From the NCBI RefSeq assembly GCF_002854065.1, contig NZ_CP024147.1: DNA of 64,000 bases; one strand, written 5' to 3'. The stretch comes from Escherichia coli (GTDB taxonomy: Bacteria; Pseudomonadota; Gammaproteobacteria; Enterobacterales; Enterobacteriaceae). Shown in pieces: positions 12,205 to 36,141 of this stretch; within the stretch, counting starts at the first letter, position 1; each line of letters starts with the position of its first letter. Under the pieces are notes generated by a model. That model was not told the DNA's origin and made no database searches. It was given only the letters and a program-made list of their open reading frames with translations. A program made the position numbers and the translations under genes.

Positions 12205-12280
12205 AGCCGCTAAGATATTAAAGGATGTGTCAAAGATGCATACCCCGATCGAGGTAAAACCTGTAGCAGGATCAAAAGAG
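12205..12280 (-). promoter_or_regulatory. napF promoter region: NarP/NarL 7-2-7 heptamer pair (about 12241..12256, TACCCCG-AT-CGAGGTA), candidate -10 TAATAT (about 12215..12220 on minus strand), weak candidate FNR half-site ATCAA about 20 bp further upstream
   Basis: Inverted heptamer pair read directly from the sequence; spacing to the -10 candidate fits the known napF P1 architecture (NarP at -44.5, FNR at -64.5). Only one good FNR half-site is visible. Coordinates approximate (±2). Confidence 0.55.
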
Positions 12281-12533
12281 TGGCGGGAAGCGTGGCAAAA
12301 ACGGGCTTTTGCTCACATTTCAAATGGTTATAAATATATTTATATAGCGATTAATTCACCAGAGATATTTCTGCTGGTTTGTTCTCTCATCAGAATTTAA
12401 CACTAAAAGAGCAGGTAAAATTGTCTGAATATTCTTTAAGTTATTCATAAAGCAAATTAATAAATCTGATGAATATGTTAACCTTCAGCGACATCATCGG
12501 TGCAAACCTATAAATGAAGAAGGAAAGCAAAAA

Positions 12534-13022
12534 ATGAAGACCATTCTACCTGCAGTATTGTTTGCCGCTTTCGCCACCACTTCCGCCTGGGCGGCAGAGA
12601 GCGTCCAGCCACTGGAAAAAATCGCGCCTTATCCACAAGCTGAAAAAGGCATGAAGCGTCAGGTGATTCAGTTAACCCCGCAAGAAGATGAATCTACCCT
12701 GAAAGTAGAACTGTTAATCGGTCAGACGCTGGAAGTCGATTGCAATTTTCATCGTCTCGGCGGGAAGCTGGAAAGCAAAACGCTGGAAGGCTGGGGCTAT
12801 GATTATTATGTCTTTGATAAAGTTAGCTCGCCGGTTTCCACGATGATGGCCTGCCCGGATGGCAAGAAAGAGAAGAAATTTGTCACCGCGTATCTGGGCG
12901 ATGCTGGAATGCTGCGTTACAACAGCAAGCTGCCGATCGTGGTGTATACGCCAGACAATGTAGATGTGAAGTACCGCGTCTGGAAGGCGGAAGAGAAAAT
13001 TGACAACGCGGTAGTTCGCTAA
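12534..13022 (+). CDS. eco: Ecotin, periplasmic serine protease inhibitor
   Basis: 162-aa ORF with signal peptide; sequence recognised as ecotin. Confidence 0.95.
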
Positions 13023-13024
13023 AC

Positions 13025-13395
13025 TGCCGTGAAGTGCGGCACCCCGTAGGTTGGATAAAGCGGTCACGCCGCATCCGACATCTAACGCCCGAGCCGGTTG
13101 CCTGATGCGACGCTGACGCGTGTTATCAGGCCTACACCGCTGTGAAGTGCTCCACCCCGTAGGTCGGATAAGGCGGTTACGCCGCATCCGACATCCAACG
13201 TCCGAGCCGGTTGCCTGATGCGACGCTGACGCGTCTTATCAGGCCTACACCGCTGTGAAGTGCGGCACCCCATAGGTTGGATAAGGCGGTTACGCCGCAT
13301 CCGACATCCAACGCCCGAGCCGGTTGCCTGATGCGACGCTGGCGCGTCTTATCAGCATACGCCACATCCGGCATACCATGCCGGATGTGGCACAT
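13025..13395. repeat. REP/BIME array: about three tandem copies of a ~114-bp unit rich in imperfect palindromes, between convergent eco and mqo
   Basis: Repeated motifs (gccgcatccgacatc..., gcctgatgcgacgctg.cgcgtcttatcaggcctac) read directly; spurious ORFs in the track show the repeating MRRNRLIRPTG peptide. Confidence 0.85.
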
Positions 13396-13397
13396 CA

Positions 13398-15056
<1,659 letters not shown>

Positions 15057-15261
15057 TTACTTTTAGTCGCTTTATTGCAGGTGAGATTTGCGCGGCATCA
15101 ACGGTAACACTTAAGTAACAACATTTAAATAATGTTTATAAATTATATTCTAATTTTAGAAACATTATAATTTCGTTGATTAATTATAGGGTTATTAGAA
15201 ATGAAGGGATTTTTAGCATATTGACCTGGCGGCAGCAGTCCGCCAGGTCAGCGTCGTAATA

Positions 15262-16905
15262 TTATGCCGTCCGGGCAACGGCATCACGCGAAGCGGCATC
15301 GCGCTCTTCGCCCGTCAGCTCGCTAAGTTGCCCGTTGCGCATCTCCAGCAGGCGGTCGGCGTGGATAAAGTAATGATCATCATGACTGATGGCGAAAATA
15401 GTTTTACCCATCTCCTGCATCAGCGGCAGCAACACCTGATAAAACTCACGACGGAAGTGTGGATCCTGATCCGCCGCCCATTCATCCAGCAGGATAATAT
15501 CGCGTTCTTCTGCCAGCGCCAGCAACAGCGCCACGCGTTTTTTCTGCCCTTTTGATAACTTCAGGTTAACAATACGCCCGTTGCTTAACTCAAGCTTATG
15601 AGCCATTTTCAGCTGCGCCAGCCACTTCTCAACCAGTTGCGGGTTAGCGGGTTTACCCTCCGGCCCCAGCAGTTGATCAAACAGCCAGACATCGGTAAAC
15701 ACTGCCGAAAACAGTTTGCGATAATCTTCCGGTTGTTCGCCGCTGACAGGTTTGCCATCCAGCAAGATTTCGCCGCTTTGTGGCTGATACAAGCCCGTCA
15801 ACAACATCGCCAGCGTCGATTTTCCGCTACCGTTGCCGCCAATCAGAAACAGCAGCTCGCCACGTTTGATGGTGAGATTAATCGGACCAACGGAAAACGC
15901 GTTATCCTGATAAGCAAACGTCACGTTACGCAGCTCCAGCGTTTGCCAGTTGGGAAACGCCTGCGGGCGCGGAAACTCTGCTTTGAAAGGCGCGAGCGCG
16001 AATTTGTTCAGCTTGTTAAACGCCACCTGCGCCGTCAGCAGCGTCGGCAATGCGCCAACCGCCGAAAGCAGCGGCGTACGCAGGAATAAAAGCGTCAACG
16101 AATAGGTCGCGGCAACGTTGGTATCAGCCCAACCGAGGCTGTTCGCCATCCAGAACACCAGGCCGATTGCGCCCAGCATCATGATGTTTGACCAGTTCAC
16201 GGCACTAAGATGGAAGGTGTCTGCGCGAATAATATGATGGCGATACTCTTGCGCATCAGGAATGTAGAGGTTGTTAAACACATACTCGGCGCGTTCCCGG
16301 TTCAGAGTCAGCTCTTTGCGCCCTTCAAGTACAGTTTGAAAATCCGTGTACAGCTTGTCTTCGGTTTCACGCAGGGTCGCCATATGTTTGTACACCCGCG
16401 CCACCAGCACAAAACCGCCCCAGATGGTGATCGCCATCCAGATAGCCGTTACCAGCAACATTTTGCCCGACAGCATCCACAGATACGCCGCAGAACCGAT
16501 AGTGAGAATGATCCCCTGCACCAGTTCCGGCAGACGCACAAAAGCAATGGTGATATTACGCACATCGCTGGTTAATCCCGCCAGCAACGAGGCGCTACCG
16601 AGTTGTTCAATGCGCTCGACGTGAGTATCCAGAATCCGCTTGATAAATTCACTACGCAGTCGGTAAACGAAGTGATGCCCCAAAGTGGTGAGCGCCAGTT
16701 GCGATCCGAGAGTGACTGCCATCAACAGCAGCAATAATCCCAGAAACTCCGGCAACACCAGCAGACTGGTATCCGCCGTTTCGATAAGGCGCTGATTGAT
16801 AAAAGCAATTAAGCCAATGCCTAAAGCCGCACTGGCGAGGCTTAGCGCCATCACACTGATAAATGGCCAGCGATACTGCCGCCAGACAAGTACAAGAAGT
16901 TCCAT
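15262..16905 (-). CDS. yojI: ABC transporter, fused permease/ATPase (microcin J25 efflux YojI)
   Basis: 547-aa ORF with N-terminal transmembrane domain and C-terminal ABC ATPase (Walker [10 protein letters not shown]; signature LSKGQKKR). Confidence 0.9.
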
Positions 16906-16980
16906 GCAGAAAACCCGGACAATGAATTACAGCCCGCAGTTTAAACATCTTCGCGCGCACAGCAATAATAATTCTTATTT

Positions 16981-17631
16981 TTATTCTTTTTTACCTGCCT
17001 GACGGAATGTCAGGTTGTAGCGGCAGTCGGTGGTGAGTGGATGAAACCCCGCTTTCAACGGTTGAATACCGTGATAAAACAGCCGCGATTCACCGCCCCA
17101 TACCACCACATCGCCATGTTCCAACAACAAACGTTTGAGCGGATCATTACGTTTCAGGCCACCAAATTGAAAAATCGCGGGTAAGCCCAGAGAAACAGAA
17201 ACAATTGGCGCGCGCAGATCCGGTTCGTCTTTATCCTGATGCAGCGACAGTTTCGCGCCAGGAGCGTAGCGGTTGATAAGACAAGCATCTGGCTGGAAAT
17301 CTGGATAGCCCGCCGCCGTAGCCGCACGTTGACATAAATTATGAAAACTCTGCGGCATGGCGGGCCACGGTTTATTTGTTTGCGGATCAATGGGCGAATA
17401 GAGATAACCTTGCCGATGGGTCGTCCAGCCCAGATGCCCACAGTTGGTCATCGCCACCGACATGGTATATCCCCCGGGGGTGACCATCTGGCGAAACGGC
17501 GACTGGCTGGCAACGTCATTAATATCGCGGATCAGTTGCTCCGCAGCGTTAAAAGCAAAACGCCGTAAAATTACCGCACCAGCCGCCAGTGGCTCTTGCC
17601 ACGGTTCAGCATCGGCAAACAGATCCAACAT
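16981..17631 (-). CDS. alkB: Alpha-ketoglutarate/Fe(II)-dependent DNA dioxygenase AlkB
   Basis: 216-aa ORF recognised as AlkB (HQDKDE region); immediately downstream of ada. Confidence 0.93.
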   Translation of the reverse strand: MLDLFADAEPWQEPLAAGAVILRRFAFNAAEQLIRDINDVASQSPFRQMVTPGGYTMSVAMTNCGHLGWTTHRQGYLYSPIDPQTNKPWPAMPQSFHNLCQRAATAAGYPDFQPDACLINRYAPGAKLSLHQDKDEPDLRAPIVSVSLGLPAIFQFGGLKRNDPLKRLLLEHGDVVVWGGESRLFYHGIQPLKAGFHPLTTDCRYNLTFRQAGKKE

Positions 17632-25144: not shown

Positions 25145-25458
25145 TCTGTAGGCCAGATAAGACGCGTTAGTGTCTTATCTGGCATTTGCACCGATTGCCG
25201 GATGCGGCGTAAACGCCTTATCCGTCCTACGATTCCCATTATTTCAACAGATTACATTAAAGTAGGCCAGATAAGACGCGTCAGCGTCGCATCTGGCATT
25301 TGCACTGAATGCCAGATGCGGCGTAAACGCCTTATCCGTCCTACGATTCCCATTATTTCAACAGATTACATTAAAGTAGGCCAGATAAGACGCGTCAGCG
25401 TCGCATCTGGCATTTGCACTGAATGCCAGATGCGGCGTAAACGCCTTATCCGTCCTAC
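25145..25458. repeat. REP/BIME array: two perfect tandem copies of a 114-bp unit plus a partial copy, between convergent rcsB and rcsC
   Basis: Units at about 25231..25344 and 25345..25458 are identical; the track's 91-aa ORF across them shows a 38-aa peptide repeated exactly. Confidence 0.85.
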
Positions 25459-28304
25459 GAATCCCGCGATTTCCTGACCCTCTCGGCATATACCGTCAGC
25501 GTCTGTTTTATCACATCCAGCGTTACCGGCTTCGACAGGCAGCTGTCCATACCGGACTCCAGACACCGCTGCTTCTCTTCAGCCAACGCATTAGCAGTTA
25601 CTCCGATTACCGGCAACGTCAGTCCCAACTGACGAATGCGTTGCGTCAAGCGGTAACCATCCATATTTGGCATGTTGACGTCGCTAAGCACGATATCAAT
25701 ATGATTCTTGCTAAGTACATTAAGCGCATCGACGCCATCATTCGCGGTTTTACATTGATAGCCCAACGATCCCAACTGATCTGCCAGCAGACGTCGGTTA
25801 ATCGGATGATCATCCACGACCAGAATCATCATATCGTCATTATCGCTGACCGCTTTGTCCGTCGACGGCAGAGCGTTAGCAGGATCGTCGCTCTCCATCT
25901 CGATCAAATAAATACGCGCCAACAATGCCGGTAGCTCATGCGGAGCAGCCACACTGTGTACCCACTCCCCTGGCGCTTTCTCCAGCGGAATACCAATATG
26001 TCGACGACAGAAGGTCACTACCGCTCTGCCCTGCCATTTTTTACTCACTACCTCGTCAGTGATTAACACATCTTCGGGAGTCGGTTCCTGCCCTTCGTAT
26101 GTTGTAACGACGATGCCGCTGCGCTGCAAACTGGTTTCCAGGAACTGACAGAGCGACGCATTGCGGACCGCCAGCCAGCAGCGTTTACCACTCAGCCCTT
26201 CCACGCCTTTTTTCTGCGGGTACTGAGCGCCGTACAACGGAATACGCACGGTAAACTGGCTGCCCATTCCCGGTTCTGAATCTACCGAGATGTCGCCGTC
26301 CATCATGCTGATCAGTTTTTCACAAATCGCCAGACCCAGACCGGTCCCCTGGAAGTTTCGCTGTACGCCCGTTCCGACCTGGAAGAAGGGATCAAACAAG
26401 CGCACCACTTCTTTCGCCGGAATCCCCACGCCGGTATCGCGAACACGGATAGAGAGATAATCGCCATCAGCGCGGACATGCAAAACTATACAGCCGGTAT
26501 CAGTGAATTTTATGGCGTTACTCAACAGGTTGGAGATGACCTGCTGTAAACGCATCGGGTCGCCATTTAAAGCCACTGGCACATCCGGTTCAATAAAGCA
26601 GTACAAGCCTAACTGCTTGCGTACCACCAGCGGTAAATAGTTGGCGGTGATGTGGTTCATCACTTCACGCGGTGAAAACTCACGCGGTTCGATCTTCAAC
26701 TGTTCCGATTCAATCTTCGAGAAATCGAGAATATCGCTGATAATTTTCAACAACAGGCTGGAAGAGTTGTTCATTGCCGTCACCAGACGATCGACGCCTT
26801 TCGGTAACTCTTTGGTTTGCAACAGATCCAGGTTACCGATAATGCCATACAGCGGCGTTCGCAGCTCATGACTGACGGTGGCAAGGAACATCGATTTTGA
26901 CTGGCTCGCCTGTTCCGCTGCTTGTGCCATCTCCTGCAACGACTCTTCCATCTTCACGCGCGAAGAAACATCCACCAGCACACAAATGGCCACGTTTTCA
27001 TTACGATAGCGCGAATGGACGAAGCTGATTTGCAGATTGGTATTGTTGCTGGTCAGGACATCAACAAAATTGACCTGCTGCCCACAGATAATTTGTGTCA
27101 GCCGTTGGCGGTCCTCATGCGTAAGCATATTGAGATAGGTATGCGCCAGTTCGTTACTTAAAATATTGACGCCATCTGCGGTACGCAAAATACAGATACC
27201 CACTGGCGCGGAGGCGACAATCTTGCGGTTAAACTGCTCATGTTCTTCCAGTCGCAGGGCATCGCTTTCCGCCGGAATGAAAATACGCCGCTCGTACATC
27301 CGCGCGAGAGTAAACAATGCAGCTCCAGCAAGCACATTCAGCAAAATTGCGTTAAGGATCAACATGCGAATGCGTTCCAGCACCTTATCAACCGGCACCG
27401 AATAAACGATGCTTAGCGATGAGGGAGGCAGATTTTTCTTCAGCACCAGCTCCCGGAAACCTTCCGTATAGCCAAACCAGGAGCGTTCCTGCATCCAGCG
27501 AGGATCGCCCTTAATTTTGCTTTCTGGTCCGGTAAGCGAAATCAGGGTATGACCATTTTCATCAAGAATGGTAACCCCCATCGGCAACGTACCCGGTAAG
27601 AAAAAATTCTCCATCCGGATGGTCTGCTCGACACCCAAAAGCGCCTGCAACCTGTTCGCCAGATAAACTGGCGTCAACGCGTAAAAATACCCGACGCCAG
27701 GGCGCGGACCTTCGCTGATCCAGTAGAGGTTACTGCCGCTATCATCTTGTGGTGCATTTCGATATTTATTGATGCGTTCATGCAACGCTTTCAACGCGGT
27801 ATCGCGTTCCACTGGCATATCACGCAGACCGAAATTGGCCATGCAGAGGTTATCGCTGCCGATTAAAAATACCCGGTTGAGATCGTAAGCCGCAGAAAAA
27901 TTATCGCGCCAGTAGCGCATAAACCACGCCAATGACTCCAGAGAACCTCGCCAGGTGTTACTCATTGCGGAACAATCGGAGTCGGCAAACAGCGGTTCAA
28001 ACGCAGGCACATCCGCCTGCGTTTCTCGTCCACGCGGGGAAAGCACACCGTTTTCTGCCGATAAGCGATTTTCAGCGATGTACTTCAGCTCTTTCATCAC
28101 ATCAGAGGTGCGTTGAATAAAGCGCTGAGCCTGATCGGAACTCAGATTAAATTCCTGACGAATTTCCGATTCTCGCTGATGTAACGCATTAACGATGTAA
28201 AAAACGGATGAAAAAGCAATCAACAGCCAGAGCACTAACGCCAATGCTCTGAACATGTAGCGCGAGGCTTTCAGGGTTGTACGAAAAGAAGCAAGGTATT
28301 TCAA
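25455..28304 (-). CDS. rcsC: Hybrid sensor histidine kinase RcsC
   Basis: 949-aa ORF with periplasmic sensor, HisKA (SHELRTP), ATPase domain, and C-terminal receiver (VDDHPINRRL...DVNMP). Confidence 0.95.
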   Translation of the reverse strand: MKYLASFRTTLKASRYMFRALALVLWLLIAFSSVFYIVNALHQRESEIRQEFNLSSDQAQRFIQRTSDVMKELKYIAENRLSAENGVLSPRGRETQADVPAFEPLFADSDCSAMSNTWRGSLESLAWFMRYWRDNFSAAYDLNRVFLIGSDNLCMANFGLRDMPVERDTALKALHERINKYRNAPQDDSGSNLYWISEGPRPGVGYFYALTPVYLANRLQALLGVEQTIRMENFFLPGTLPMGVTILDENGHTLISLTGPESKIKGDPRWMQERSWFGYTEGFRELVLKKNLPPSSLSIVYSVPVDKVLERIRMLILNAILLNVLAGAALFTLARMYERRIFIPAESDALRLEEHEQFNRKIVASAPVGICILRTADGVNILSNELAHTYLNMLTHEDRQRLTQIICGQQVNFVDVLTSNNTNLQISFVHSRYRNENVAICVLVDVSSRVKMEESLQEMAQAAEQASQSKSMFLATVSHELRTPLYGIIGNLDLLQTKELPKGVDRLVTAMNNSSSLLLKIISDILDFSKIESEQLKIEPREFSPREVMNHITANYLPLVVRKQLGLYCFIEPDVPVALNGDPMRLQQVISNLLSNAIKFTDTGCIVLHVRADGDYLSIRVRDTGVGIPAKEVVRLFDPFFQVGTGVQRNFQGTGLGLAICEKLISMMDGDISVDSEPGMGSQFTVRIPLYGAQYPQKKGVEGLSGKRCWLAVRNASLCQFLETSLQRSGIVVTTYEGQEPTPEDVLITDEVVSKKWQGRAVVTFCRRHIGIPLEKAPGEWVHSVAAPHELPALLARIYLIEMESDDPANALPSTDKAVSDNDDMMILVVDDHPINRRLLADQLGSLGYQCKTANDGVDALNVLSKNHIDIVLSDVNMPNMDGYRLTQRIRQLGLTLPVIGVTANALAEEKQRCLESGMDSCLSKPVTLDVIKQTLTVYAERVRKSRDS

Positions 28305-28481
28305 AGGGGCGAAGCTCCGCCTCAGGTGACCGATGGAGTGTGGTTAAGGTAGCGGTAAAAGCGTGTTACCGCAATGTTCTGTCACCATTGCAATAATGCG
28401 TATCGCTTAGAAACCATTGCCTTAACCAGGAAAGCCGGAGTAAATGGACAGTTCTCAGTACGAAAAATAAGAAATGACCAA

Positions 28482-28521
28482 TCTGCCGACGCTTGTTAAT
28501 GGTTATATCCTGGCGTCGGCA
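28482..28521 (-). terminator. Candidate terminator hairpin downstream of yfaP (10-bp stem ctgccgacgc / gcgtcggcag)
   Basis: Inverted repeat read directly; on the minus strand it is followed by T-rich sequence. Coordinates approximate. Confidence 0.4.
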
Positions 28522-28578
28522 GATCGCCCAGCAGTCTTATCTGAAAAAAGAAAGAGCCAGGTTGTGTGAAGGGATGGA

Positions 28579-29355
28579 TCACCAGTCAAAACTTTTCACC
28601 AGCGTCAGCTCGCCAGCATTACGCATCGGTACAATAAATTTTTCCTGTTTCTCATTGACCGATCCTTCATCGGTAATCAGCGTCAGTTGGGCGGTGGTTA
28701 ATTCCGTTTCGCTGCGCCCACCATAGTAGTTGATATACACCTGATAGCGCCCGTGAACTGGCGCTGGCATGGCGAAAATCTCGGGTCCGTACCCCGTCGT
28801 GACATCCATATCCAGTGCACCACTGTTTTTCAGCACGGTGTTACCGTACCAGGCGTGTTCGCCATCGGGCGTGACAACATGGAGATCGAGATCGGTATTG
28901 TCCGTATCCCACGAGAGAACCAGCCGTAAACGTGCACGAATCGTTCCTGTACCCGGCGTTGAGTAAAACTGCATTTTTTGTCGGCTTTGCCCATCCGGGC
29001 TGATGACCTGCACGCTGTTGCTGCCTTCAGTGAAAATATAAGGGCGTGCAAATGAACCATCGGATTCAATTCTCTGCGGCATACTGGCACCGTTGACCAC
29101 CAGCCGGCCCTGCTGAGCTTTACCCGCCGCAGCATAATTCTTTATTTTGCCGCGGATCTGCGCTGAGATATTTTGATCATCTGCCATGTTGACGGACGAC
29201 GCCGGGTAATTGATCGATTGTGAAAAACTGGCATCTTCGCCCTCTGCCGGATGCCAGCCTGAGAGCGGTGCGTCAATCTCGACTTCCTGCACACCTTCAC
29301 TGTGAGCGACAGGCGAAAGCGCCACCAGTAACAACAGAAGAAAAATCTTTCGCAT
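28579..29355 (-). CDS. yfaP: Secreted protein YfaP (DUF2135 family as recalled); last gene of the yfaA-T-S-Q-P cluster
   Basis: 258-aa ORF with signal peptide (MRKIFLLLLLVALSPVAHS); start overlaps the yfaQ stop. Confidence 0.85.
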   Translation of the reverse strand: MRKIFLLLLLVALSPVAHSEGVQEVEIDAPLSGWHPAEGEDASFSQSINYPASSVNMADDQNISAQIRGKIKNYAAAGKAQQGRLVVNGASMPQRIESDGSFARPYIFTEGSNSVQVISPDGQSRQKMQFYSTPGTGTIRARLRLVLSWDTDNTDLDLHVVTPDGEHAWYGNTVLKNSGALDMDVTTGYGPEIFAMPAPVHGRYQVYINYYGGRSETELTTAQLTLITDEGSVNEKQEKFIVPMRNAGELTLVKSFDW

Positions 29356-29359
29356 AGCA

Positions 29360-31009
29360 TTAGTCCATTAATAATTGTCGGGTCAGCGTTTCGATATAGT
29401 TCTCATCAAGCCCGGTGGGATAACCATCAAAGGCCAGGTGCAGATACTCATGGGTTAAATCCAGCCGATCCTGAAGCGTAAAGAAGTTACGAATAAACAG
29501 CCGTTTCTGCTGCCGATCGGTATAGGGGAAACCTGAGACTAAACGACAGACCGCAAACACGTCTGGTTCGTTGTACCCCGTCTCGCCTTGTAATATACGC
29601 CGCCACTGCGGCATTTTTTTCGCCAGCCAGGCTTTCGCTTTGGGTAATAACTGACAGGTTGAGCGTGGCGCTCCCCAGCGGCTAAGGCTGTTGTCGGGAT
29701 AAGCAAACGCGAGTATCTGGTCGTAACGCTCTCCCCGCCCCGCCTGGGCCATGGCTTGCCGCCAGGAAAGCGTCCCTTCGGTAGCGCGACTGCCGTGATA
29801 ATGAACCGGATCGCCCGCATAGATGAGATCCTGCGTCCAGGCGGTCATCGTTCGCGCCCCCGTGGTAGCTGGCGAAGCAGAAACACGCTGCGTGGCGCTG
29901 CTGTCGGGGATGGTCAGGCAATCGCCTTCCCGATTGGCGTTTTGCTGTAAAAAAGTGCGAATTGCCACGGTCATGGCTTTCGCTGCCTCAGGGGGCGTAC
30001 TTTTCGCCTCGCGATCCAGAACTCTGGCAACGTACTCTTCACGATCGAGATGCGACTGCAATTTCAGTTTGCCCTTTTCGCTCAGTAAGGTCGTCTCACC
30101 GTGGCTGACAAACGTAATGTGGTTACCATTGGCAAATGTCACACGATAGCGCCCATTAAGTACGCCGGGTTTTACTGACGTCGTACTCTTTTCCGCTGTG
30201 ATTTTCTTCAGCGGATAGCGGGCAAATAGCTCCATCTCTACACATTGCCCACTGGCAACTTGTGTCGGCACTGGCAAAACCCGATTAAGCACCGTCGCAT
30301 AACGGGTCAGTACCGTTTTGCTGGTGCCACTGCCAGTCACCCACAGCGGTGTACCATCGGTTAACCAGCCGGCAAAACCACCCTGACGGATTTCCTGTTT
30401 ATCATCGGCAAACCAGCTCCAGGTTTTCACCCGAACCCGACTACCGAGCATGGATGCGACACCGATTTTCGCCTCGTCCAGCACCACATCCAGTAAGACT
30501 TCCTGAGCTTTGTTTTGCGCAGGTAACGTCGCTAATGAATCAAGCAGCGATTTAACCGTTACCGAGGTTTCTGGCTTCAGCGTAGTAAGAGACGCTAACC
30601 ACGCAGGTGCCTGACGCTGTTGCCAGTATTGCCCCCACACATCTGCGCCAATATGCAACCGCTGCGGCGCAAAATAGAGCCCACAGGAACGTACCAGCGC
30701 GGTATCGCGCGTTATGCTCTCCCCAGCCTGACAACAATAAACCTCTTCCGGGGAGTTTCCGCGACACTGGTAGGGCTGCTCCGGTTGATGGGTATCCTCC
30801 AGCCAGGCGTAAACATACAGTTTCCACAAACTCCCTAACGGCGTGGTGAGCGAGTCAGGTAATGTCGAGGCTTTGGTCACGCCTGATGACGACAGCTGAT
30901 ACAGTTGATCGTGCTGCGCACCACGCAGTGCCAGTTGTAACGGCGTCTCCTCCGCAAGCGTTGGCAGAGTAACCAACGCCAATAGCCAGACGATTCTGCG
31001 CCAGTTCAC
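29360..31009 (-). CDS. yfaQ: Secreted protein YfaQ (DUF2300 family as recalled)
   Basis: 549-aa ORF with signal peptide (MNWRRIVWLLALVTLPTLA); abuts the yfaS stop. Confidence 0.85.
   Translation of the reverse strand: MNWRRIVWLLALVTLPTLAEETPLQLALRGAQHDQLYQLSSSGVTKASTLPDSLTTPLGSLWKLYVYAWLEDTHQPEQPYQCRGNSPEEVYCCQAGESITRDTALVRSCGLYFAPQRLHIGADVWGQYWQQRQAPAWLASLTTLKPETSVTVKSLLDSLATLPAQNKAQEVLLDVVLDEAKIGVASMLGSRVRVKTWSWFADDKQEIRQGGFAGWLTDGTPLWVTGSGTSKTVLTRYATVLNRVLPVPTQVASGQCVEMELFARYPLKKITAEKSTTSVKPGVLNGRYRVTFANGNHITFVSHGETTLLSEKGKLKLQSHLDREEYVARVLDREAKSTPPEAAKAMTVAIRTFLQQNANREGDCLTIPDSSATQRVSASPATTGARTMTAWTQDLIYAGDPVHYHGSRATEGTLSWRQAMAQAGRGERYDQILAFAYPDNSLSRWGAPRSTCQLLPKAKAWLAKKMPQWRRILQGETGYNEPDVFAVCRLVSGFPYTDRQQKRLFIRNFFTLQDRLDLTHEYLHLAFDGYPTGLDENYIETLTRQLLMD

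Positions 31010-36141
<5,132 letters not shown>

What the first reader, a model, noticed from the sequence alone, without database searches (positions are those of the whole stretch)
28305..28578. No ato operon between rcsC and yfaP
In K-12 as I recall it, atoSC-atoDAEB (about 6-7 kb, short-chain fatty acid and acetoacetate utilisation) lies between rcsC and yfaP. Here only 274 bp separate the rcsC start from the yfaP stop, so this genome lacks that block (or K-12 gained it). The junction contains a 10-bp-stem inverted repeat at about 28482..28521.
Basis: partly seen in the sequence, partly recalled or inferred. Interest (0 to 1): 0.4.

Follow-up and report, generated by a model that had tools for sequence, protein, structure and literature searches.

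The report
Old deletion scar replacing ato operon
This E. coli lacks the acetoacetate/short-chain fatty acid (ato) genes that K-12 carries between rcsC and yfaP, and the 274-bp gap holds a decayed leftover of atoS, so this is an old gene loss shared by about 28% of E. coli strains and already known as a strain difference.

Summary
rcsC (25455-28304, minus strand) and yfaP (28579-29355, minus strand) are 274 bp apart. K-12-type genomes carry atoS-atoC-atoDAEB there: 7,413 bp where the window has 197 bp (28381-28577).

The same junction occurs in 1,539 of 5,426 complete E. coli genomes, including O157:H7, O55:H7 and O111:H8. ato DNA is found in 3,932 genomes.

The 197 bp is not an empty insertion site. 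It is a collinear, decayed relic of the atoS promoter region and the first ~150-180 nt of atoS. The start codon ATG has become ACG, there are internal gaps of 11, 52 and 10 bp, and substitutions ignore codon position. The ato-less state is therefore a loss.

The loss is old. E. whittamii-like genomes carry the same scar at 89% identity. K-12-type ato, in contrast, is 96-100% identical between E. coli and E. albertii, whose flanks are only 82-93% identical. A second, deeply diverged ato allele also sits at this locus.

The inverted repeat is real and longer than reported: 12 perfect bp (28481-28492 / 28513-28524, 20-nt loop). It is non-random and arose inside the relic. Its function is unknown.

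Variable ato content is already documented in the literature. Interest is low to moderate.

The parts
25455..28304 (-). rcsC (sensor kinase of the Rcs phosphorelay), TTG start at 28304
   Evidence: ORF list; 99.9% aa identity to K-12 RcsC; RefSeq annotation of near-identical genomes
28305..28380 (.). 76 bp upstream of rcsC, shared by ato-positive and ato-less alleles (presumed rcsC promoter and leader)
   Evidence: 76/76 identical to K-12 and 73/76 to E. whittamii; homology to K-12 drops sharply after 28380
28381..28473 (+). Decayed relic of the distal rcsC-atoS intergenic region and the atoS start. It aligns to atoS -90..-39 and -27..+14 with an 11-bp gap. The former start codon ATG is now ACG at 28460-28462.
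   Evidence: Collinear alignment. Local alignment score 14 against 8.1 +/- 1.3 in shuffles (8/2000), at the same offset in both sequences. 54/95 identity to K-12, while the same stretch is almost unchanged between K-12 and the 75-80%-diverged L027 allele.
28474..28553 (+). Relic of atoS nt 67-146 (codons 23-49), following a 52-bp gap that removed atoS nt 15-66
   Evidence: BLAST 54/69 identities, E=9e-7 against the K-12 locus and E=8e-6 against all 28 Gb of E. coli genomes. Shuffle test 38 against 7.9 +/- 1.2, 0/2000. The 22 differences fall 7/8/7 over codon positions. Residues invariant in functional AtoS orthologues are replaced.
28481..28492 (.). Left arm of the perfect 12-bp inverted repeat (ATCTGCCGACGC)
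   Evidence: RNA fold of the minus strand -29.7 kcal/mol, z = -5.4
28513..28524 (.). Right arm of the perfect 12-bp inverted repeat (GCGTCGGCAGAT)
   Evidence: 10 of the 22 differences from atoS lie in the 24 arm bases, and all of them improve pairing (hand comparison of the sequences).
28554..28577 (.). Last 24 bp before the yfaP stop codon. No detectable homology to atoS, atoB or the K-12 atoB-yfaP spacer. The right end of the deletion lies here, within about 10-24 bp of the yfaP stop codon.
   Evidence: 5/24 identity to K-12 atoS; shuffle test not significant, 704/2000; only 12/24 identical between E. coli and E. whittamii
28579..29355 (-). yfaP, last gene of the yfaA-yfaT-yfaS-yfaQ-yfaP (alpha-2-macroglobulin) cluster, co-directional with rcsC
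   Evidence: ORF list; 98.4% aa identity to K-12 YfaP; homology to K-12 resumes at 28578

Best explanation
The rcsC-yfaP spacer is the scar of an old deletion of about 7.2 kb. The deletion removed atoS from about codon 50-60, then atoC, atoD, atoA, atoE, atoB and the atoB-yfaP terminator, from a chromosome that had the K-12 gene order. What remained was the atoS promoter region and the first ~150-180 nt of atoS. Having lost its function, this remnant decayed: the start codon was lost, small deletions of 11, 52 and 10 bp occurred, and 28-43% of bases were substituted. Only the 76 bp next to rcsC stayed unchanged. The scar allele was already present before the E. coli and E. whittamii alleles separated. 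Inference: it is passed among strains by homologous recombination in the nearly identical rcsC and yfaP flanks. It co-exists with functional ato alleles. From established knowledge of the ato system (Pauli & Overath 1972; Jenkins & Nunn 1987, as cited in PMC9602453), cells carrying the scar allele lack the AtoSC two-component system, the AtoDA CoA-transferase, the AtoE transporter and the AtoB thiolase. They should therefore be unable to use acetoacetate or short-chain fatty acids by this route, unless they carry ato elsewhere, for example on the LAA island. Shown here: the gene order, the breakpoints, the relic homology, the population frequency, the cross-species sharing and the non-random hairpin. 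Inferred: the phenotype, the recombination route, and any role of the hairpin.
For: Gene order and breakpoints. Frequency: contiguous junction in 1,539 of 5,426 genomes; the same 197 bp at 95% identity or more in about 1,540 genomes, at one place per genome in most (median 1, highest 2); ato DNA in 3,932 genomes. Relic homology. Decay rather than functional divergence: differences fall 7/8/7 over codon positions; ATG has become ACG; E. whittamii has an in-frame stop; and the stretch GYIVETEGRSAVLSEKEKKL, identical in the orthologues P0005-P0009 (77-83% overall identity), reads GYILASADRPAVLSEKRK in the relic. Derived from the Escherichia-type atoS: at the 12 sites where K-12 and the L027 allele differ, the relic matches K-12 at 6, L027 at 2 and neither at 4. 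Old age: E. whittamii Sa2BVA5 and three further contigs encoding the identical YfaP protein carry the same scar with the same gaps at 88.9% identity, similar to their flanks (rcsC 87.8%, yfaP 92.3%). Recurrent loss elsewhere: an IS1A-bounded truncation in strain PCP06171 (atoS cut at ~nt 414, IS1A, then a partial yfaQ-type gene) and an atoS'-'atoB fusion in Escherichia sp. MOD1-EC7003. Literature: ato prevalence differs by more than 50% between phylogroups A and B1 (PMC9602453); AtoSC is listed as not present in three of the four Shigella columns of the table (PMC9496106).
Against: The relic is short (197 bp), and its first 95 bp align only weakly (57% identity, p about 0.004). The last 24 bp cannot be assigned. 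The age estimate is inflated if several substitutions arose in one event, for example a template switch that created the hairpin. K-12 and the window are virtually identical right up to both breakpoints (176/176 and 121/123), so the flanks carry no signal of an ancient split; this has to be explained by later recombination. The phenotype was not tested. The rest of this genome was not available.
Confidence: 0.85

Rival explanations
1. The rcsC-yfaP junction is the ancestral empty site, and K-12-type strains gained the ato block by insertion. On this view the 197 bp is the original spacer.
For: ato does move. It sits on the LAA pathogenicity island next to hes in 48 complete genomes (PMC5539235). 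K-12-type ato is 96-100% identical between E. coli and E. albertii although their flanks are only 82-93% identical, so ato-positive strains could in principle have regained it.
Against: The 'empty' site contains collinear atoS 5' and atoS-upstream sequence. An insertion model cannot produce that. No integrase, tRNA or direct repeats lie at the borders. The chromosomal ato block starts and ends exactly where the relic is collinear.
Confidence: 0.03
2. The relic does not come from long neutral decay. It comes from a third, already highly diverged functional ato allele, imported from outside Escherichia, that was deleted fairly recently.
For: A second deep allele class exists at this very locus (L027, L034: atoS 74%, atoC 77% identical to K-12), so deep allelic diversity is real here. 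The relic is about as far from K-12 atoS (72-78%) as that allele is overall.
Against: In the aligned 80 nt the two functional alleles differ at 12 sites, with only 2 amino-acid changes in 26 codons. The relic differs from either at 22-26 sites, spread evenly over codon positions, and it replaces residues that are invariant in all close orthologues. The three-taxon branch lengths are 18 (relic), 4 (K-12) and 8 (L027). The upstream intergenic part is nearly unchanged between K-12 and L027 but 43% changed in the relic. The E. whittamii scar shares the same gaps, so the deletion predates that split.
Confidence: 0.08
3. The 12-bp hairpin is a functional element that evolved in the scar. It would be an mRNA 3'-end stabiliser, a partial terminator for the yfa operon, or an insulator in front of rcsC, replacing the atoB-yfaP terminator that was deleted.
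For: The repeat is non-random. All 10 arm substitutions improve pairing. The minus-strand RNA folds at -29.7 kcal/mol, z = -5.4. The core 28476-28553 is better conserved between the E. coli and E. whittamii scars (73/78) than the rest (91/118), Fisher p = 0.0026, and it has 1 versus 9 variable sites among 7 E. coli alleles. K-12 has a canonical stem plus U-tract downstream of yfaP, and that element is missing here. yfaP and rcsC are co-directional.
Against: The loop is 20 nt. The U-rich run starts 8-9 nt after the stem and is not conserved in strains E8/L37 or in E. whittamii. The terminator scan did not call it. E. whittamii has an uncompensated mismatch in the stem. There is no Rfam match. 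A single template-switch mutation could create such a repeat with no function.
Confidence: 0.25

Closest known systems
atoSC-atoDAEB locus of E. coli K-12 (acetoacetate / short-chain fatty acid catabolism; Pauli & Overath 1972, Jenkins & Nunn 1987, as cited in PMC9602453)
   Same: Same chromosomal position, between rcsC and yfaP. The flanks are 98-100% identical. The spacer retains recognisable atoS 5' and upstream sequence.
   Different: All six genes are gone. Only about 170-190 bp of decayed atoS-derived sequence remains.
Strain-specific segments between K-12 and O157:H7 ('K-islands' and 'O-islands' of the EDL933/K-12 comparison; recalled from memory, not retrieved here), and the reported variable ato prevalence among phylogroups (PMC9602453) and Shigella (PMC9496106)
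   Same: O157:H7 carries exactly this junction, with the 197 bp 100% identical. Papers already treat ato as an accessory cluster.
   Different: I found no paper describing the atoS relic, its presence in E. whittamii, or the hairpin. A missing hit in this library is not proof that none exists.
ato module of the LAA pathogenicity island (PMC5539235, PMC6174562)
   Same: The same six genes, about 98% identical to K-12, are found in LEE-negative STEC.
   Different: They lie in another chromosomal context (hes and phosphoethanolamine transferase on one side, IS66 on the other). Similarity to the K-12 locus begins about 29 bp upstream of atoS (megablast match from query position 62, context). Nothing of LAA is in this window.
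Quasipalindrome / template-switch mutations (Ripley-type; recalled from memory)
   Same: A cluster of substitutions converts an imperfect repeat (5/12 pairs in the atoS ancestor) into a perfect one.
   Different: Both arms changed (4 and 6 substitutions), so one switch alone does not explain it. Not testable here.

Membership tests
ato-negative allele of the rcsC-ato-yfaP locus (accessory-gene presence/absence polymorphism) | rcsC and yfaP flanks collinear with ato-positive genomes, and no ato gene between them | tested here: met
ato-negative allele of the rcsC-ato-yfaP locus (accessory-gene presence/absence polymorphism) | The same junction recurs in independent complete genomes, so it is not an assembly artefact | tested here: met
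   1,539 genomes with the contiguous junction; about 1,540 with the 197 bp at 95% identity or more
ato-negative allele of the rcsC-ato-yfaP locus (accessory-gene presence/absence polymorphism) | No ato genes elsewhere in the same genome | not testable with these tools
   Only the 64-kb window is available. The window is 100% identical over 20 kb to strain CUWW06. 1,494 of 5,426 genomes have no ato DNA, and only 48 carry the LAA-type hes-atoS junction.
Pseudogene relic / deletion scar of atoS | Statistically significant similarity to the gene and its upstream region, in the same order as in the intact locus | tested here: met
   E=9e-7 and E=8e-6; shuffle tests 0/2000 and 8/2000; collinear multiple alignment
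Pseudogene relic / deletion scar of atoS | Reading frame destroyed, and substitutions blind to codon position | tested here: met
   ATG to ACG at 28460-28462; gaps of 11, 52 and 10 bp; differences 7/8/7 by codon position; stop codon in the E. whittamii copy
Intrinsic (Rho-independent) terminator | G+C-rich stem | tested here: met
   12-13 bp stem with 8 G-C pairs; -29.7 kcal/mol
Intrinsic (Rho-independent) terminator | Short loop (3-8 nt) and a U-tract directly after the stem | tested here: not met
   The loop is 20 nt. The U-rich run begins 8-9 nt after the stem and is not conserved. The scan did not call it.
REP/BIME, MITE or IS end | Many copies per genome, present as an insertion relative to the homologous sequence | tested here: not met
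   One place per genome in most (median 1, highest 2). The arms and loop are collinear with atoS codons 25-40.
Described RNA family (Rfam 15) | Match to a covariance model | tested here: not met
   No match at E <= 1 in 27800-29000, both strands
Genomic island inserted in K-12 (gain model) | An empty site free of island sequence; integrase, tRNA or direct repeats at the borders | tested here: not met
   The 'empty' site carries atoS-derived sequence. No such border features in L001 or in the spacer.

The most novel reading that the evidence does not exclude
The rcsC-yfaP locus holds an ancient, selectively maintained polymorphism with three deep allele classes: K-12-type ato, a ~75%-identical second ato type, and the ato-less scar. 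The alleles are older than the Escherichia species that carry them and are exchanged between species. The scar's conserved perfect hairpin has been co-opted to end yfa-operon transcripts or to insulate rcsC from them, so that losing ato rewired the transcriptional context of the Rcs sensor kinase.
Probability: 0.15. Interest if true: 0.45.

Novelty: already known. Interest (0 to 1): 0.2.

Why it matters
In practical terms, this strain, like O157:H7 and many B1 strains, should be unable to catabolise acetoacetate or butyrate through AtoDAEB, and it lacks the AtoSC regulator. That is relevant to growth in gut niches rich in short-chain fatty acids, and one study linked ato to lactic-acid resistance (PMC9602453). 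In evolutionary terms, the locus is a compact example of an old deletion scar that persists alongside functional alleles which move between Escherichia species. That bears on how accessory metabolic operons are kept polymorphic. None of it changes current understanding. The hairpin would matter only if it proves to control yfaP or rcsC transcripts.

Tried and rejected
- Consensus promoter and terminator scans of the spacer found nothing relevant to the hairpin. The same simple scan also missed the obvious K-12 atoB-yfaP terminator, so its negative result is weak; folding was used instead.
- The Rfam search gave no match.
- I looked for an extant atoS closer to the relic, among AtoS N-terminal homologues and among Escherichia loci. 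None was closer than 80%. The L027/L034 allele is farther from the relic (74-75%).
- The 31-codon ORF 28476-28571 (a 41-codon version is annotated 'hypothetical protein' in strains E8 and L37) was rejected as a gene. It is the atoS relic read in frame, and E. whittamii has a stop at codon 15.
- The last 24 bp were tested as a relic of the atoB 3' end or the atoB-yfaP spacer. The result was not significant.
- The YfaP-based genome scan did not return E. fergusonii, E. marmotae or E. ruysiae representatives, so their state at this locus is unknown.
- Literature searches for a description of the relic or of K-islands found nothing specific.
- I could not list all genomes per allele, so no phylogroup-by-allele table was made. 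The serotype examples come from sampled rows only.

Full report
**1. Observation**

- The window carries rcsC at 25455-28304 (minus strand, TTG start) and yfaP at 28579-29355 (minus strand). The spacer is exactly 274 bp.
- The encoded proteins are 99.9% and 98.4% identical to K-12 RcsC and YfaP.
- In a K-12 derivative the order is rcsC, atoS, atoC, atoD, atoA, atoE, atoB, yfaP (L001). O157:H7 86-24 has the same direct rcsC-yfaP junction as the window (L002).
- BLAST against the K-12 locus is 100% identical up to window 28380, which is 76 bp upstream of the rcsC start, and resumes at 28578, one base before the yfaP stop codon. So 7,413 bp of K-12 correspond to 197 bp here (28381-28577).
- No Ato protein has a true match anywhere in the 64-kb window.

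**2. Frequency**

- Of 5,426 complete E. coli genomes, 1,539 carry the contiguous junction.
- About 1,540 carry the same 197 bp at 95% identity or more, at one place per genome in most (median 1, highest 2). It is 100% identical in O157:H7 strains and 99% in O111:H8 and other strains.
- ato DNA is found in 3,932 genomes, so 1,494 genomes have none.
- The sums overlap by about 50 genomes. That matches the 48 genomes in which ato sits next to hes on the LAA island (PMC5539235, PMC6174562).
- The window itself is 100% identical over 20 kb to strain CUWW06, a wastewater isolate.
- The literature already treats ato as variable. Its prevalence differs by more than 50% between phylogroups A and B1 (PMC9602453), and AtoSC is listed as not present in three of the four Shigella columns of the table (PMC9496106).

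**3. What the 197 bp is**

It is not an empty site. It aligns collinearly with the K-12 rcsC-atoS intergenic region and the atoS 5' end:

| Window | Corresponds to |
|---|---|
| 28381-28431 | atoS -90..-39 |
| (gap) | 11 bp missing |
| 28432-28473 | atoS -27..+14; the start codon ATG is now ACG (28460-28462) |
| (gap) | 52 bp missing |
| 28474-28553 | atoS nt 67-146 |
| 28554-28577 | no assignable homology (5/24 identical after a further 10-bp gap) |

- The coding part is highly significant: 54/69 identities, E=9e-7 against the K-12 locus and E=8e-6 against the whole 28-Gb collection, with 0/2000 shuffles reaching the score.
- The upstream part is weaker but sits at the same offset in both sequences (8/2000 shuffles).
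- The final 24 bp cannot be assigned.

**4. Decay, not functional divergence**

- In atoS nt 67-146 the relic differs from K-12 at 22 of 80 sites, split 7/8/7 over codon positions.
- K-12 and a ~75%-identical functional allele (L027) differ at only 12 sites there, with 2 amino-acid changes in 26 codons.
- The stretch GYIVETEGRSAVLSEKEKKL is identical in the AtoS orthologues P0005-P0009, which are 77-83% identical overall. The relic reads GYILASADRPAVLSEKRK.
- The E. whittamii copy has an in-frame stop.
- At the sites that separate K-12 from L027, the relic sides with K-12 at 6, with L027 at 2 and with neither at 4. The relic therefore stems from the Escherichia-type atoS.
- The upstream intergenic part is nearly unchanged between K-12 and L027, but 43% changed in the relic. 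That fits release from constraint once atoS was gone.
- The ato-less allele is therefore a loss, not an ancestral empty site.

**5. Age and the wider locus**

- E. whittamii Sa2BVA5 and three further contigs that encode the identical YfaP protein carry the same scar, with the same gaps, at 88.9% identity. That is similar to their flanks (rcsC 87.8%, yfaP 92.3%). The scar therefore predates the separation of these alleles.
- E. albertii is ato-positive at this locus in the four genomes examined. Its ato block is 96-100% identical to K-12, while its rcsC and yfaP-yfaQ flanks are only 82-93% identical. K-12-type ato has evidently crossed species borders recently.
- A second functional allele class occurs at the same locus in a whittamii-like genome (L034) and in L027-L029. 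Identities to K-12 are atoS 74%, atoC 77% and atoD/A/E 82-89%, with a recombination breakpoint inside atoE-atoB.
- Independent, younger ato losses also exist: an IS1A-bounded truncation in strain PCP06171 (atoS cut at ~nt 414, IS1A, then a partial yfaQ-type gene) and an atoS'-'atoB fusion in Escherichia sp. MOD1-EC7003.
- Outside Escherichia, yfaP is not next to rcsC or ato.
- I infer that the locus holds several old alleles reshuffled by homologous recombination in the conserved flanks. Whether ato-positive E. coli retained ato or regained it cannot be decided from these data.

**6. The inverted repeat**

- It has 12 perfect pairs (28481-28492 / 28513-28524) and a 20-nt loop.
- It is not expected by chance: 0/5000 simulations gave 12 bp or more.
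- It lies inside the atoS relic. The corresponding atoS arms pair at only 5 of 12 positions. All 10 substitutions in the arms, 4 in one arm and 6 in the other, improve pairing (hand comparison of the sequences).
- The minus-strand RNA, downstream of yfaP, folds at -29.7 kcal/mol with z = -5.4.
- The core 28476-28553 is better conserved between the E. coli and E. whittamii scars than the rest of the scar (73/78 against 91/118, p = 0.0026), and it is nearly invariant among seven E. coli alleles.
- The canonical atoB-yfaP terminator of K-12 is absent here, and yfaP is co-directional with rcsC. A role as a transcript 3' end or insulator is therefore conceivable.
- Against that role: the loop is too long, the U-rich run is displaced and not conserved, E. 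whittamii has an uncompensated mismatch, and neither Rfam nor the terminator scan recognises it.
- A template-switch mutation with no function is at least as likely. This remains unexplained.

**7. Verdict**

- The absence of ato in this lineage is already known biology, and the mechanism is ordinary: deletion followed by pseudogene decay.
- The points I did not find described are the relic, its age, the inter-species exchange of ato alleles, and the non-random hairpin.
- Overall interest is low to moderate.

Noticed in passing
window 25148-25465: A tandem array with a 114-bp period (2.8 copies, 96% matches), built of REP/BIME-like palindromes, fills the convergent rcsB-rcsC spacer. The window has one more 114-bp unit than K-12 and O157:H7 86-24.
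   Followed up: partly
L027 (GCA_028883695.1) 1-17247; L028, L029; L034 10851-18095: A second, deeply diverged allele of the whole ada-apbE-ompC-rcsDBC-atoSCDAE region (74-88% identical to K-12), joined to E. coli-like atoB/yfaP/yfaQ or gyrA (97-100%). atoS is split into two ORFs in L027-L029. L027 has no yfa operon: atoB lies directly next to gyrA. No complete E. coli genome carries this allele at more than 90% identity.
   Followed up: partly
L030-L033 (E. albertii) versus L001: The ato block is 96-100% identical between E. albertii and K-12, while the flanking rcsC and yfaP-yfaQ are 82-93% identical. This indicates recent inter-species transfer of ato by homologous recombination.
   Followed up: yes
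L026 (O178:H19 2012C-4431) 3030-10280: A complete atoSC-atoDAEB cluster, about 98% identical to K-12, lies in LAA-island context, with hes and phosphoethanolamine transferase upstream and IS66 downstream. The hes-atoS junction is present in 48 complete genomes.
   Followed up: yes
L025 (strain PCP06171) 4091-5745; L004 (Escherichia sp. MOD1-EC7003) 10962-11369: Two independent, younger ato losses. In one, atoS is truncated at about nt 414 and followed by IS1A and a partial yfaQ-type gene. The other is a fusion of the first ~302 nt of atoS to the last ~112 nt of atoB.
   Followed up: partly
window 31010-35629 and 29360-31009: The yfaS-type alpha-2-macroglobulin ORF is intact here (1,539 aa) but annotated as a pseudogene (internal stop) in the K-12 derivative L001. 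yfaQ is intact here but a pseudogene in O157:H7 86-24.
   Followed up: no
window 28342-28349 and 28419-28426: The 8-bp inverted pair GGTTAAGG / CCTTAACC, about 70 bp apart upstream of rcsC, is kept in K-12, E69, MOD1, the L027-type allele and both scar alleles, although the sequence around the second copy has decayed. It may be part of the rcsC control region.
   Followed up: no
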